Below the pieces are notes generated by a model, which saw nothing but the letters and a program-made list of their open reading frames with translations, made no database searches and had not been told where the DNA came from. Positions 15,485 to 17,826 of a DNA stretch of 27,266 nucleotides are shown here, piece after piece. A program made the translations under genes and the position numbers. Origin of the DNA: an uncultured Bacillota bacterium (GTDB lineage: Bacteria > Bacillota > Clostridia > Peptostreptococcales > Anaerovoracaceae); contig CAMPBN010000001.1 in assembly GCA_946638265.1 (NCBI GenBank), forward strand, positions 1 to 27,266. Reading direction: 5' to 3'. Numbering within the stretch: position 1 is the first letter of the stretch; each line of letters opens with the position of its first letter.

Positions 15485-15511
15485 TTCACACCTCAATAAC
15501 ATTTTTATCGC

Positions 15512-15584
15512 TTTCGTCCAGCTACTCTATCTTTTCGTCCAAATTTGATCGATTTTGGACGAAAAATCAATCTGCTGGACGAAA
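15512..15584. repeat. Nested double inverted repeat (four TTTCGTCCA motifs), REP-like
   Basis: tttcgtccagc 15512, ttttcgtccaaa 15532, tttggacgaaaa 15554, gctggacgaaa 15574. Confidence 0.85.
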
Positions 15585-15586
15585 AA

Positions 15587-15799
15587 TTATCCGATGTATT
15601 CGAAACGCGGGCGCACCTGCCCGTCGCGCTCTACAGTCTCGTTCCACATGGATGCAGGCCGCACCCACACATCCCCGTCGCCGTACAGCGCCCGGTAGAC
15701 CACCATGTCCTCCAGCGTCTCCGAATGCCGCGCCACGCACAGCACCTCGTACTCGTTCCCTTTAAAATGCCGGTACTTGCCGACCTTGATCTCAGACAT
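15587..15799 (-). CDS. DUF1653-family protein
   Basis: GKYRHFKGNEYEV...HSETLEDMVVYRALYG...WVRP...RF. Confidence 0.9.
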   Translation of the reverse strand: MSEIKVGKYRHFKGNEYEVLCVARHSETLEDMVVYRALYGDGDVWVRPASMWNETVERDGQVRPRFEYIG

Positions 15800-15821
15800 T
15801 GCTATTCTCCTTCTCTGCTTT

Positions 15822-16754
15822 TTATATCGTTTTCAGCCGGTTCAACAGATCTTCCACAACACCCGAATCATCTATTAGAAAAATACCAAAGCATTTCTTT
15901 CCGGCATCCTTTATGGATGCCCCTATATGATACGCTGTCTTCCCATCCAGTATGATAAATCTATCATGGAACACCTGTGTCTTCTTCACTGTCAATGTCG
16001 GGTACTGTGTATTAAAATTATCCGCATCCCTATTCGTAAGCGGTGCGTTCGCATATGTATATATCTTCACATTGACCCCTGCATTCTTCTTTGCCAGGAT
16101 GTTCAATGTATCCACATCGACATATCCGTCAATCAGGATTATCTCCTTTTGCGCTTTCCGGATGATGGATGTAATTAAGCTGAACGCATCGTAAATCTGT
16201 CCATCAAAGAATATCTTCTGCTCCGATTCTGCATGTTCCTCGATATACTGAAACACCTTGTCAAACTTCTCATCCGTGCTTTTCTGGTATTCCAACTGTT
16301 TCAGTTCTATATCACTAACCTTTTCAAAGAGAAGTGCATTGCGGGCAACAAAGCGACGCATTTCAACAAAAGTGCGCATGATATTTATACTCACTTGAAC
16401 AGCAACCTTGCTATGCAAAACGCTTGCAAGCATACTTATTCCCTGCTCTGTATAGGCATAGGGATAATATCTGCGGCCACCGCGACCGCCTTGCTCTTCG
16501 TTTGAGGTTCCAGATTGGAACCTCAAACCATCAAATTCCTCTTTCGTAAGCTTAAAACGAAAATCCTCCGGAAACCGGTCAGCGTTACGCGTTGCTGCTT
16601 TGTTGAGATTCTTTGTCTCAACCTGATAAAGCATCGCCAAATCACTGTCTATCATGACCTGTTTTCCACGAATAACATAAACAAGGCTCCCAATATCCTT
16701 TATTTCGGTAATAACAGGCGCTATTTCATTAGCCGTTTGTTTTGTATTTACCAT
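15822..16754 (-). CDS. ORF6N-domain DNA-binding protein with C-terminal PLD-like domain
   Basis: IRGKQVMIDSDLAMLYQV...RFPEDFRFKLT...YAYTEQGISMLASVLHS; C-terminal FHDRFIILD...YHIGASIKD; start ATG 16754 after GGAG. Confidence 0.85.
   Translation of the reverse strand: MVNTKQTANEIAPVITEIKDIGSLVYVIRGKQVMIDSDLAMLYQVETKNLNKAATRNADRFPEDFRFKLTKEEFDGLRFQSGTSNEEQGGRGGRRYYPYAYTEQGISMLASVLHSKVAVQVSINIMRTFVEMRRFVARNALLFEKVSDIELKQLEYQKSTDEKFDKVFQYIEEHAESEQKIFFDGQIYDAFSLITSIIRKAQKEIILIDGYVDVDTLNILAKKNAGVNVKIYTYANAPLTNRDADNFNTQYPTLTVKKTQVFHDRFIILDGKTAYHIGASIKDAGKKCFGIFLIDDSGVVEDLLNRLKTI
16500..16528. repeat. 29-bp palindrome inside the ORF6N coding sequence
   Basis: GTTTGAGGTTCCA-GAT-TGGAACCTCAAAC; encodes LRFQSGTSN. 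Confidence 0.9.
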
Positions 16755-16765
16755 TTTCATCTCCA

Positions 16766-16796
16766 TGTTTGAGGTCACAAATTGTGACCTCAAACA
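16766..16796. repeat. 31-bp palindrome just upstream of the ORF6N RBS, same outer arms as the internal copy
   Basis: TGTTTGAGGTCACAA-A-TTGTGACCTCAAACA; reads LRSQFVTSN in the gene frame. Confidence 0.92.
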
Positions 16797-16839
16797 ATTT
16801 CATTTTTTATACTTTAGACGGAAATTACCCGATGTACTC

Positions 16840-17157
16840 TTATTCTCCCTTTTTCTTTTCTGTGGCGCCCGCCACGACTTTTGGATTCTTTTTCAACATT
16901 TCTTCGTAATACGCTTTGTACCGATATACGCTGCGTTTGCTGATGCCGTTTCGATCGGCAATCTCAATCAAGTCCATGCCCTTTTCGTAACAAATCACAA
17001 AATCGTTATATATGGCCGTCCACTTGGCATTGTGCGGCTGGCGCCCGCTGGCTTTGCGCTGCTTGTAATATTCAAGTTCCTTTCGCAAATCCGCGTTTTC
17101 ACGTTCCAATTCCTCTATTCGCGCCATGGCCTCTTCAAATGTTTTAATCTTTTTCAT
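16840..17157 (-). CDS. Small coiled-coil plus resolvase-type HTH protein
   Basis: GMDLIEIADRNGISKRSVYRY; GGAG RBS. Confidence 0.7.
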   Translation of the reverse strand: MKKIKTFEEAMARIEELERENADLRKELEYYKQRKASGRQPHNAKWTAIYNDFVICYEKGMDLIEIADRNGISKRSVYRYKAYYEEMLKKNPKVVAGATEKKKGE

Positions 17158-17185
17158 AACCGATTTCTCCGATAATCCTATTTTT

Positions 17186-17362
17186 TTATGCTATTTTTCG
17201 CCCGAGCAATTCTTTCCAATAGTTGCCGCCGTCGTTCCCTTTCAGACGTTCGTCATCCATTGCAAAGCCCTTGATGATATACTCCTTCAAAACAGAATTC
17301 GCCCATATTTGAACTGTTGCAAAAAATGCAACAACTGAATCCTTGTCCAGCTCCCCTTCCAC
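17186..17362 (-). pseudogene. RhuM-family relic with internal deletion and truncation
   Basis: Below the ORF-track cutoff; VEGELDKDSVVAFFAT-VQIWANSVLKEYIIKGFAMDDERLKGNDGGNYWKELL matches two normally separate RhuM segments (recalled). Confidence 0.7.
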
Positions 17363-17382
17363 GTCATTTCCACTCTGTCACA

Positions 17383-17411
17383 ATTATACTGCATTTAGGC
17401 CGGGTTGTCAA
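17383..17411 (-). promoter_or_regulatory. Perfect consensus sigma-A promoter
   Basis: TTGACA-17 bp-TATAAT. Confidence 0.85.
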
Positions 17412-17475
17412 TGTCATTTTGTCTTTCCGCGGCACAAAAATGGGTCGCTTCTCCCGCGACCCAAAACCAACGAAT

Positions 17476-17826
17476 CTACAGCAGCGCACGCCACTCGTCT
17501 TCTTTGAAGCCCACCAGCACGCAGTCCTTCGCCACCACCAGCGGCCTCTTCACCAGCATCCCGTCCGACGCCAAAAGCCGATACATCTCGTCCTCGCTCA
17601 TGCCCGGCAGCTTCTTCGACAGCTCCATCTCCCGGTACAGCTGCCCACTGGTATTGAAAAACTTTCGCAGCGGCAGCCCGCTCTTTTCGTGCAGCGCCCG
17701 CAGCTCCGCCTCGTCCGGATGCTCCGTCTTAATGTCCAAAAGCTCGTATTTCACGCCGCTCTCGTCCAGCCACTTCAACGCTTTCTTGCACGTCGTGCAC
17801 TTTGAATAGCAGTATACTTTTAACAT
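17476..17826 (-). CDS. ArsC/Spx-like (YffB-type) family protein
   Basis: YSKCTTCKKA, FNTSG..YRE, LVKRP. Confidence 0.9.
   Translation of the reverse strand: MLKVYCYSKCTTCKKALKWLDESGVKYELLDIKTEHPDEAELRALHEKSGLPLRKFFNTSGQLYREMELSKKLPGMSEDEMYRLLASDGMLVKRPLVVAKDCVLVGFKEDEWRALL

What the first reader, a model, noticed from the sequence alone, without database searches (positions are those of the whole stretch)
16500..16796. Covarying 29-bp palindrome present both upstream of and inside the ORF6N gene, in frame, 267 nt apart
Seen: both sites are GTTTGAGGT-N11-ACCTCAAAC. The inner 11 nt differ (CACAAATTGTG versus TCCAGATTGGA) yet each stays self-complementary: two compensatory pair swaps (C-G to T-A, A-T to C-G) and one A-T to G-T change. 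The internal copy encodes LRFQSGTSN within the ORF6N domain; the upstream copy reads LRSQFVTSN in the same frame just before the RBS. Inference: a DNA-binding gene carries a structured site inside its own coding sequence. Options are an autoregulatory operator pair (looping), a recombination or hairpin site allowing in-frame exchange or deletion of the first 89 codons, or an ssDNA/RNA hairpin. I know of no description of this.
Basis: partly seen in the sequence, partly recalled or inferred. Interest (0 to 1): 0.82.

Follow-up and report, generated by a model that had tools for sequence, protein, structure and literature searches.

The report
ORF6N gene carries its own operator
The two palindromes are real. 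They belong to a DNA element that nearly every gene of the very large ORF6N DNA-binding family carries inside its own coding sequence, and it is most likely the binding site of the protein that the gene encodes, a feature I could not find in the literature.

Summary
Observation confirmed. Window 16500-16528 and 16767-16795 are 29-bp palindromes with identical 9-bp outer arms and compensated inner changes.

- **Gene:** minus strand, 15822-16754. It has an ORF6N helix-turn-helix domain, a long helix and a PLD-fold domain, and it matches the PADLOC defence candidate PDC-S05.
- **Internal palindrome is family-wide:** 
  - It sits at the same codons (LRxQxxTS) in about 220 sampled homologues from genomes, viral contigs and metagenomes. 
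  - It keeps 11.9 of 14 pairs, against 5.4 under synonymous resampling. 
  - Eight of 13 pairs covary, at the cost of amino-acid changes.
- **Recognition helix predicts the bases:** 
  - Residue 52 predicts positions 10-11 (Q gives CA, E gives CG, R gives GC, K gives TC). 
  - Residue 48 predicts position 8 (K gives G). 
  - The rule held on a fresh metagenome set: 62 of 66 symmetric sites.
- **Best reading:** double-stranded binding sites of ORF6N dimers, probably for self-regulation.
- **This window:** 
  - The internal site is cognate (K48/K52, GG-T-TC). 
  - The upstream site is a Q52-type site brought in by recombination. 
  - Upstream copies are optional: about half of this subfamily and 13% of the wider family.
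- **Not supported:** 
  - The in-frame spacing is a coincidence. 
  - I found no support for exchange or deletion between the copies, or for an RNA-specific hairpin.
- **Prior art:** I found no published description. This scan has noted the same element many times on other DNA.

The parts
16500..16528 (.). Internal 29-bp palindrome (13 of 14 pairs) encoding residues 77-85 (LRFQSGTSN). Half-site TTGAGGTTCCAA. Predicted cognate site of the encoded protein (K48, K52).
   Evidence: Same position in homologues. Residue-to-base rule.
16767..16795 (.). Upstream 29-bp perfect palindrome in the leader, ending 3 nt before the ribosome-binding site. Half-site TTGAGGTCACAA. G8 fits K48, but CA at positions 10-11 is the Q52 type, so it is heterologous to this protein.
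   Evidence: The leader plus palindrome resembles that of L010, while the gene body resembles L003.
15822..16754 (-). Gene for a 310-aa protein: ORF6N domain, long helix, PLD-fold C-terminal domain. Full-length match to PADLOC candidate defence family PDC-S05.
   Evidence: Pfam PF10543 at 4e-31. PDC-S05 at 6e-126. AF2 model, pLDDT 81.8. C-terminal domain resembles Nuc, NucT and Zucchini; whole length resembles TrmBL2.
16757..16763 (-). Ribosome-binding site: GGAG at 16760-16763, with a 5-6 nt spacer to the ATG at 16754-16752.
   Evidence: Sequence. The palindrome-GGAGG-ATG layout is conserved in homologues.
16584..16649 (-). Codons for the predicted helix-turn-helix (helix 36-43, turn, recognition helix 47-57). 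Residues K48, N49 and K52 are the specificity positions.
   Evidence: Secondary structure of the AF2 model. Mutual information and contingency tables. Out-of-sample check.
15802..16839 (-). 1038-bp gene cassette (leader, both palindromes, gene, 20-nt tail). It is absent from a related contig in public run X9. It is bounded by the direct repeat GGAGAATA at 16841-16848 and 15803-15810 (the upper copy lies just outside the cassette; both on the minus strand).
   Evidence: Joint 15801|16840 in a 15.7-kb contig. Repeat read.

Best explanation
Both palindromes are double-stranded DNA binding sites of ORF6N-family helix-turn-helix dimers.

The internal one is the universal element of the family. Each ORF6N gene carries, at the codons for LRxQxxTS, the site that its own recognition helix reads. 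Invariant helix residues (T47, R56, N57, and R60 just after it) would face the invariant bases (TTGA, T9, CAA). Variable residues 48 and 52 would face the variable bases 8 and 10-11.

In this window the protein (K48, N49, K52) is predicted to bind its own coding sequence at 16500-16528. The most likely use is negative feedback that works wherever this mobile, often promoter-less cassette lands, with bound dimers blocking transcription through the gene.

The upstream copy next to the ribosome-binding site is an optional second family site. Here it is a Q52-type site acquired by recombination of the leader, so it is at best a weak site for the resident protein.

Shown: the palindromy, the covariation, the family-wide position, the residue-to-base rule and its validation, and the mosaic origin of the leader. 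Inferred: physical binding, a dimer, and repression.
For: 1. Selection acts on the DNA. 52 distinct internal 29-mers pair 11.9 of 14 positions, against 5.4 when codons are resampled synonymously; the highest null mean was 6.1.
2. Covariation is strong. 90.7% of cells are paired, 8 of 13 pairs change on both sides, and 0 of 500 shuffles reach this; slid controls give 26-42%. Wobble bases pair with second codon positions, so AGG/AGA at codon 78 goes with Thr/Ile at codon 83.
3. The element is family-wide. It occurs in viral ORF6N genes at 45-66% identity and in 79 of 82 metagenome domains. The family has 27,733 representatives at 50% identity.
4. There is a recognition rule. Residue 52 carries all 1.5 bits of position 11, more than any nearer column. 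Q goes with CA in 37 symmetric sites, plus 4 where only one arm is CA. E goes with CG in 17, plus 1 one-armed. K goes with TC in 11 of 11. R goes with GC in 24, CC in 2, and 9 mixed. K48 goes with G8 in 48 of 51. The pairs make chemical sense (Gln-A, Glu-C, Arg-G, Lys-G; my knowledge).
5. The rule held out of sample: 62 of 66 symmetric sites, and K48 with G8 in 49 of 51.
6. On a tree built without the trait columns, residue 52 changes at least 25 times. Every independent contrast goes the predicted way and none goes the other way.
7. Residues 48, 49 and 52 lie on predicted helix 47-56, which follows helix 36-43.
8. Non-coding copies keep the CAA-N-TTG core and the same four dinucleotide classes (53 of 56). 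They match the resident protein more often than chance: 13 of 31 against 7.8 (p 0.026), and 21 of 27 against 14.4 (p 0.009).
9. G-T and A-C mismatches are equally frequent, as expected for duplex DNA and not for RNA.
10. In whole genomes the motif occurs only at these genes.
11. Promoter-like pairs lie just 5' of the upstream copy in 11 of 41 loci, against 12 of 121 controls.
Against: No binding experiment exists, and the DNA-protein fold was not run.

The internal site encodes residues 79-83. The link between residue 52 and the bases could therefore in principle be protein-protein coevolution (52 with 82, 48 with 83) laid over a palindrome kept for another reason.

More than half of the upstream copies, including the one in this window, are not cognate at positions 10-11. 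They still stay palindromic, with compensated changes (L059 against L064). In 3 of 5 genomes checked no paralogue with the matching helix exists.

The tree is poorly resolved, so only 8 contrasts sit on well-supported branches.

Why a site inside the gene would be useful is inference. No promoter is evident in front of the gene in this window.
Confidence: 0.55

Rival explanations
1. The palindromes act as hairpins or cruciforms (in mRNA, in single-stranded DNA, or extruded from duplex DNA), independently of the ORF6N protein. Possible roles are mRNA stabilisation or processing, pausing of translation or transcription, or a structure read by some other enzyme.
For: Both would fold as stems of about -21 kcal/mol on either strand. 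Pairing is kept by compensatory changes, even in upstream copies that do not match the resident protein. The upstream copy sits at a fixed place just 5' of the ribosome-binding site and, in some loci, directly after the stop codon of an upstream gene, so it is transcribed.
Against: There is no excess of G-U over A-C mismatches on the mRNA strand (34 against 33 overall). The CAA-N-TTG core and T9 are conserved in sequence, not only in pairing, in non-coding copies too. Only four of sixteen possible dinucleotides are used at positions 10-11. A pure structure cannot explain why helix residues 48 and 52 predict the bases. There is no Rfam match and no T-run on the sense strand.
Confidence: 0.15
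2. The palindromes are recombination sites or hotspots at which N-terminal specificity modules or whole cassettes of ORF6N genes are exchanged, inverted or deleted.
For: The gene is a solitary mobile unit with no conserved neighbours. DNA homology between loci often starts at the upstream palindrome. This window is a mosaic whose crossover lies just 3' of the upstream palindrome. L004 and L005 diverge at the same place. Several MAG contigs end near the internal palindrome. A related genome lacks the whole 1038-bp cassette.
Against: The cassette ends (15801|16840, direct repeat GGAGAATA) are not at the palindromes. No contig joins the two copies as a deletion or inversion of the stretch between them. 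The one X9 joint between copies of the two sites carries 32 unrelated letters and lies elsewhere in that contig. Spacing is not in frame in most homologues. No recombinase travels with the gene. Most of the wider family has only the internal copy. Crossovers next to a conserved 29-mer and ribosome-binding site are what ordinary homologous recombination would give.
Confidence: 0.1
3. There is no function at the DNA level. A quasi-palindrome perpetuates itself by template-switch correction of its arms, and the helix-to-base correlation reflects contacts inside the protein between residues 48/52 and residues 82/83.
For: Template switching at quasi-palindromes is a known mutational route that makes arms match (my knowledge). 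The bases that correlate with residues 48 and 52 also determine residues 82 and 83.
Against: The palindromy is kept in 79 of 82 distant family members from many environments. A related palindrome sits in a Bro-N gene in another frame. Non-coding copies sit at a fixed place before the ribosome-binding site and associate with the helix above chance. Residues 82-92 form a low-confidence loop in the model, an unlikely partner for the exposed face of a recognition helix.
Confidence: 0.07

Closest known systems
parS inside the spo0J/parB gene, bound by ParB (my knowledge)
   Same: A palindromic site for a helix-turn-helix protein lies inside the coding sequence of the gene that encodes that protein, and is conserved across many bacteria.
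   Different: parS is one nearly invariant sequence, mostly found outside parB as well, and it serves chromosome segregation. Here the site is at one fixed codon position of the domain throughout a family of more than 27,000 clusters. Its sequence diversifies together with the recognition helix, and it drives amino-acid changes in the protein.
Phage lambda O protein and the ori-lambda iterons inside gene O
   Same: Binding sites of a DNA-binding protein are embedded in its own coding sequence.
   Different: Those are origin iterons of one phage lineage. ORF6N genes sit in chromosomes, defence islands and phages, and nothing here points to replication. Here there is one palindrome per domain, not an array.
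Auxiliary operators inside coding sequence (lacO2 in lacZ, galOI in galE) (my knowledge)
   Same: An operator inside a transcribed gene is paired with a promoter-proximal operator.
   Different: Those lie in a regulated gene, not in the regulator's own DNA-binding domain, and they need the promoter operator. Here the upstream partner is optional (13-50% of genes), the spacing is not phased, and the two sites often differ in type.
TrmB-family regulators such as TrmBL2 (PDB 5box)
   Same: The overall build is similar: an N-terminal DNA-binding domain, a long helix and a PLD-like C-terminal domain. The Foldseek match runs over about 240-310 alignment columns.
   Different: Sequence identity is 12-16% and the rmsd is high. 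The N-terminal domain here is ORF6N, not the TrmB winged helix. TrmB genes are not known to carry a self-encoded site.
PADLOC candidate defence family PDC-S05
   Same: Full-length HMM match at 6e-126. A PDC-S05 representative (annotated there with a RhuM domain) cut plating of T7 and T5 about 1000-fold in E. coli (bioRxiv 10.1101/2024.09.26.614923).
   Different: The tested gene is a different member. Nothing in that paper concerns a palindrome or DNA binding.

Membership tests
ORF6N domain (Pfam PF10543) | HMM match above the curated cut-off | tested here: met
   107.5 bits against a cut-off of 27.8, residues 24-112. 109.7 bits in the genome search.
PADLOC PDC-S05 candidate defence gene | Full-length match to the family model | tested here: met
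   PDLC04869 at 6.4e-126, residues 12-308 on profile positions 8-301 of 306.
PADLOC PDC-S05 candidate defence gene | Protects against phage | not testable with these tools
   Only another member was tested, in the literature.
PLD-superfamily nuclease (Nuc, NucT, Zucchini, BfiI type) | PLD fold of the C-terminal domain | tested here: met
   Foldseek hits: NucT 6ehi (E 3.5e-5), Nuc 1byr, Zucchini 4ggj; probability 1.00, TM on target about 0.5.
PLD-superfamily nuclease (Nuc, NucT, Zucchini, BfiI type) | Catalytic HxK(x)4D motif and a Pfam match above the cut-off | tested here: not met
   The motif reads H-D-R-F-I-I-L-D, with Arg in place of Lys. PLDc_2 scores 19.4 bits against a cut-off of 27. 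So I do not file it as an active nuclease.
Self-encoded cis site (parS-in-parB kind) | The protein binds the site that lies in its own gene | not testable with these tools
   Indirect support only: the helix-residue-to-base rule and its out-of-sample check. The complex prediction with DNA was not run by the tool.
Self-encoded cis site (parS-in-parB kind) | The site is conserved as DNA beyond what the protein sequence requires | tested here: met
   11.9 against 5.4 pairs under synonymous resampling. Covariation.
Operator pair acting by looping | Both sites are present, of one specificity, at a conserved or helically phased distance | tested here: not met
   The upstream copy is absent in about half of the subfamily and in 67 of 77 wider family loci. 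Spacing runs 254-298 nt without phasing. Types differ in 21 of 31 loci.
Intrinsic terminator or known RNA family | Hairpin followed by a U-run on the transcribed strand, or an Rfam match | tested here: not met
   The terminator-like call is on the antisense (+) strand only. No relevant Rfam match at E up to 1.
Integron-like cassette with attC | The palindromic site lies at the cassette boundary, and an integrase is present | tested here: not met
   The cassette ends at 15801|16840, which is 44 nt from the upstream palindrome. No conserved neighbouring recombinase.

The most novel reading that the evidence does not exclude
ORF6N domains are self-contained 'protein plus site' modules. Every copy of the domain carries its own operator inside the codons of the domain. 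Operator and recognition helix diversify together under a simple readable rule (residue 52: Q, E, R, K give CA, CG, GC, TC; residue 48: K gives G). The symmetry of the DNA site dictates amino acids of the supposed protein motif LRxQxxTS. This would give mobile, promoter-less defence and phage genes built-in feedback in any genomic context. Heterologous upstream sites, as in this window, would wire different family members (for example phage-borne ones) to each other.
Probability: 0.4. Interest if true: 0.88.

Novelty: new variant of a known kind. Interest (0 to 1): 0.78.

Why it matters
If the reading is right, a very large and almost unstudied family has a predictable DNA target and a natural one-residue-to-base recognition rule. 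The family has more than 27,000 clusters at 50% identity and is common in phages and defence islands, including a candidate defence system with reported activity.

- Regulons and cross-talk between phage and host copies become predictable from sequence.
- A conserved 'protein motif' turns out to be largely a translated DNA site.
- Recoding or codon-optimising these genes for expression would silently destroy a functional element.
- It would be a rare case in which a cis element and the trans factor that reads it are physically the same stretch of DNA and must evolve together.
- For this window, it explains why the two copies differ: one is the protein's own site, the other came in with a foreign leader.

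Tried and rejected
- **Rfam scan of 15500-17500:** only chance miRNA hits.
- **Sequence search of the PDB** with the protein and with a family profile: nothing.
- **Single-sequence AF2 model:** useless, pLDDT 37. The alignment-based model was used instead.
- **Complex prediction** of two ORF6N domains with the internal duplex: the tool did not fold it and gives no verdict. It counts neither for nor against binding.
- **G-U bias test for an RNA hairpin:** none.
- **Helical phasing of the two sites:** none (spacings).
- **In-frame exchange:** rejected, because the frame relation is not conserved.
- **Genome-wide repeat (REP-like):** rejected. The motif occurs only at ORF6N genes in 5 whole genomes and in the window's own genome.
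- **Conserved neighbours or a recombinase:** none.
- **Paralogues that would match the non-cognate upstream sites:** not found in 3 of 5 genomes; the other two have only K-R-E types.
- **Palindromes read in another frame within ORF6N genes of my sets:** none. One Bro-N example only.
- **Public runs:** contigs only, no raw reads, so rare junctions between the two copies could not be excluded.
- **Atlas look-up:** only confirmed the family.

Full report
**Observation**

The two sites exist exactly as described. Positions 16500-16528 and 16767-16795 both match GTTTGAGGT-N11-ACCTCAAAC, and none of 100 shuffles of the window gave two matches. They are the only copies in the 1.19-Mb, 68%-complete genome. 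The gene lies on the minus strand at 15822-16754, with GGAG followed by an ATG that opens MVNTKQ.

The internal copy encodes residues 77-85, LRFQSGTSN. The upstream copy lies in the leader and ends 3 nt before the ribosome-binding site. Its reading as LRSQFVTSN comes from a TTG-started frame that opens only three codons after a TGA.

**The gene**

The protein has an ORF6N domain (PF10543, 4e-31) and a weak PLD-like C-terminus. It matches the PADLOC candidate defence family PDC-S05 over its full length, at 6e-126. One PDC-S05 member was reported to reduce plating of T7 and T5 about 1000-fold (bioRxiv 10.1101/2024.09.26.614923).

An alignment-based AF2 model (pLDDT 81.8) gives these elements:
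- two short strands;
- helix 36-43, a three-residue turn, then helix 47-56, which together form a helix-turn-helix;
- helix 71-81;
- a low-confidence loop at 82-92;
- a long helix at 116-173;
- an alpha/beta domain at 180-309.

That last domain resembles the PLD-fold nucleases NucT, Nuc and Zucchini, and the whole chain resembles the regulator TrmBL2. The catalytic motif reads HDR...D instead of HxK...D, so I do not call the protein an active nuclease.

**The palindrome is a property of the family**

The protein has more than 8000 close relatives. Its N-terminal domain has 27,733 representatives at 50% identity.

In 80 genome loci from Lachnospiraceae, spirochaetes, Bifidobacteriaceae, Fusobacterium and others, at 60-94% identity, the same codons carry a 29-nt palindrome in almost every case.
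- The 52 distinct versions pair 11.9 of 14 positions. Synonymous resampling with the genes' own codon usage gives 5.4, and the best of 2000 null means was 6.1.
- Other 29-nt windows of the same genes average 3.6.
- On an alignment of 63 distinct sites, 90.7% of cells pair and 8 of 13 pairs change on both sides (143 cells). None of 500 shuffles reaches this, and slid controls give 26-42%.

Every wobble base of the nine codons pairs with a second codon position. Keeping the symmetry therefore forces amino-acid changes. AGG or AGA at codon 78 goes with Thr or Ile at codon 83. TCA, TCG, TGC or TTC at codon 79 goes with Val, Ala, Gly or Gly at codon 82.

The same holds in viral ORF6N genes with other domain architectures (45-66% identity, mean 11.2-11.7 pairs) and in 79 of 82 metagenome domains from soils, sediments and guts.

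A related palindrome with the same CAAATTG core sits in a Bro-N gene next to two ORF6N genes in L135. There it is read in another frame, as ETVTNCHGL.

In five whole genomes and in the window's own genome, the motif occurs only at these genes.

**What reads it**

I took a lead from earlier notes of this scan and computed mutual information between every column of the domain and the variable bases of the half-site.
- Residue 52 carries all 1.50 bits of position 11, and 1.21 of 1.32 bits of position 10.
- Residue 48 carries 0.83 of 0.98 bits of position 8.
- Residue 96 carries 0.99 of 1.26 bits of position 7.
- Columns that lie closer to the palindrome in the gene score far lower.

The contingency tables are nearly deterministic:

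| Residue | Bases | Count |
|---|---|---|
| Q52 | CA at 10-11 | 37 symmetric, plus 4 with one arm CA |
| E52 | CG at 10-11 | 17 symmetric, plus 1 one-armed |
| K52 | TC at 10-11 | 11 of 11 |
| R52 | GC at 10-11 | 24 GC, 2 CC, 9 mixed |
| K48 | G at 8 | 48 of 51 |

Residues 48, 49 and 52 sit at i, i+1 and i+4 on the predicted recognition helix. The pairs are the textbook ones: Gln with A, Glu with C, Arg and Lys with G (my knowledge).

The residues that never vary (T47, R56, N57, R60) would then face the bases that never vary (TTGA, T9, CAA).

On a tree built without the trait columns, residue 52 changes at least 25 times and the dinucleotide at least 23 times. All independent contrasts go the predicted way and none the other way, although only eight of them lie on well-supported branches.

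I then tested the rule on data not used to derive it. In the metagenome set it predicted 62 of 66 symmetric sites (E 12 of 12, K 18 of 19, Q 23 of 25, R 9 of 10), and K48 went with G8 in 49 of 51.

**Duplex or hairpin**

Each site would fold as a stem of about -21 kcal/mol in RNA of either strand. Three points favour duplex DNA read by a protein.
- Mismatches show no G-U preference: 34 G-T or T-G against 33 A-C or C-A over internal and upstream copies.
- Non-coding copies keep the core sequence.
- Non-coding copies use only the four dinucleotide classes that match Q, E, R and K, in 53 of 56 cases.

A structure alone would allow sixteen classes and would not track the helix.

**The upstream copy**

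In this subfamily about half of the loci have a copy that ends 1-36 nt (often only a few nt) before the ribosome-binding site or start codon. In some it comes directly after the stop codon of a small HTH gene, and in about ten loci there are two or three copies.
- Promoter-like hexamer pairs lie immediately 5' of it in 11 of 41 loci, against 12 of 121 control windows. L033 has TTGACA-18-TAGAAT followed by the palindrome.
- In the wider family only 10 of 77 loci have an upstream copy. The internal site is therefore the universal part and the upstream one is optional.
- Upstream copies match the resident protein more often than chance, but by no means always. At positions 10-11 the figures are 13 of 31 against 7.8 expected (p 0.026), and in the second set 5 of 10 against 2.3. 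At position 8 they are 21 of 27 against 14.4 (p 0.009).
- Non-matching copies remain palindromic with compensated changes. In 3 of 5 genomes no paralogue with the matching helix exists. This remains unexplained.

**This window**

The protein is K48/N49/K52, so its predicted site is GG-T-TC. That is the internal copy. The upstream copy is GG-T-CA, the Q52 type.

The closest relatives (L003, L004, L006; 87-94% identity) have a TC-type upstream copy. The leader of the window, from 13 nt before the palindrome to the ribosome-binding site, matches that of L010, which is only 75% identical as a protein. From the start codon onwards the window follows L003. The window's gene is therefore a recombinant, with a crossover in the conserved stretch between the palindrome and the start codon. 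That explains why the two copies share their outer arms but differ inside.

**Mobility**

No neighbouring gene is conserved among the 80 loci. DNA similarity between loci typically starts at the upstream palindrome, or at about codon 20, and ends at the stop codon.

A 15.7-kb contig in public run X9 joins 15801 directly to 16840. It therefore lacks a 1038-bp cassette comprising the leader, both palindromes, the gene and a 20-nt tail. In the window this cassette is bounded by the direct repeat GGAGAATA, which doubles as the ribosome-binding site of the downstream DUF1653 gene. The ends are not at the palindromes.

No contig joins the two palindromes as a deletion or inversion of the stretch between them. 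The one joint that links copies of the two sites, in the same X9 contig, carries 32 unrelated letters between them and lies beyond the DUF1653 gene, so it is a separate pair of sites. Only assembled contigs were available, so rare junctions cannot be excluded.

**Verdict**

The best explanation (0.55) is that these are binding sites of ORF6N helix-turn-helix dimers. The internal one is the protein's own site, written into its coding sequence and most plausibly used for context-independent negative feedback.

The rivals are:
- a protein-independent hairpin (0.15);
- a recombination site (0.10);
- a self-perpetuating quasi-palindrome combined with coevolution inside the protein (0.07).

I found no paper describing this, and no paper on PDC-S05 that mentions it. 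The same element has been noted by this scan many times on other DNA, and I re-derived and extended those claims independently here.

Noticed in passing
window 15802-16839: The whole ORF6N gene is a 1038-bp insertion/deletion polymorphism. A related contig (run X9) joins 15801 to 16840. The cassette is bounded by the 8-bp direct repeat GGAGAATA, which also serves as the ribosome-binding site of the next gene. Whether this is a target-site duplication or a deletion between repeats is open.
   Followed up: partly
window 17186-17362 (palindrome about 17310-17340): This is a 58-codon relic of a RhuM-family gene (PF13310, profile positions 45-83 only). A second palindrome family (TGAACAGTTCGGA...TCCGAACTGTTCA and relatives) turns up near ORF6N genes in L015:4824, L027:2918, L031:1140 and L033:1853. 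It may be the RhuM counterpart of the ORF6N element.
   Followed up: no
L135:855-2909: A viral contig has two tandem ORF6N genes, each with its own internal palindrome of a different type. They are followed by a Bro-N gene whose related palindrome (core GTGACAAATTGTCAC at 2243) is read in another frame.
   Followed up: partly
L058 (Clostridium vitabionis), about 430 bp between the upstream palindrome at 1246 and the gene start: Compared with L078 and L064, an extra stretch of about 431 bp separates the leader and palindrome from the gene, with the break close to the start codon. I did not examine what the insert is.
   Followed up: no
L063, L065, L075, L077, upstream regions (-343 and -262 from the internal site): The same two-site leader (one GG-CG site and one AA-CA site) precedes genes of either specificity. 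L063 is the K/E type and matches the distal site. L077 is the R/Q type and matches the proximal site. The leader looks built for two different family members.
   Followed up: partly
contigs of runs X1 and X9 laid on window 15700-17300: In two related genomes, copies of the leader plus palindrome, or two palindromes 32 nt apart, lie just beyond the DUF1653 gene. The window has instead an unrelated hairpin-repeat region (15523-15583, TTTTCGTCCA repeats). The spot looks like a hotspot for ORF6N cassettes.
   Followed up: no
L026, L074, L081 (MAG contig ends): Several assemblies break within about 30 nt of the internal palindrome. Many metagenome contigs holding this gene are only gene-sized. This suggests assembly-graph branching where variable N-terminal modules meet a conserved body.
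   Followed up: no
window 15822-16281 (residues 159-310): The C-terminal PLD-fold domain has HDR...D instead of the catalytic HxK...D. The whole protein aligns structurally with the TrmB-like regulator TrmBL2. The domain may therefore sense or bind something and not cut DNA.
   Followed up: partly
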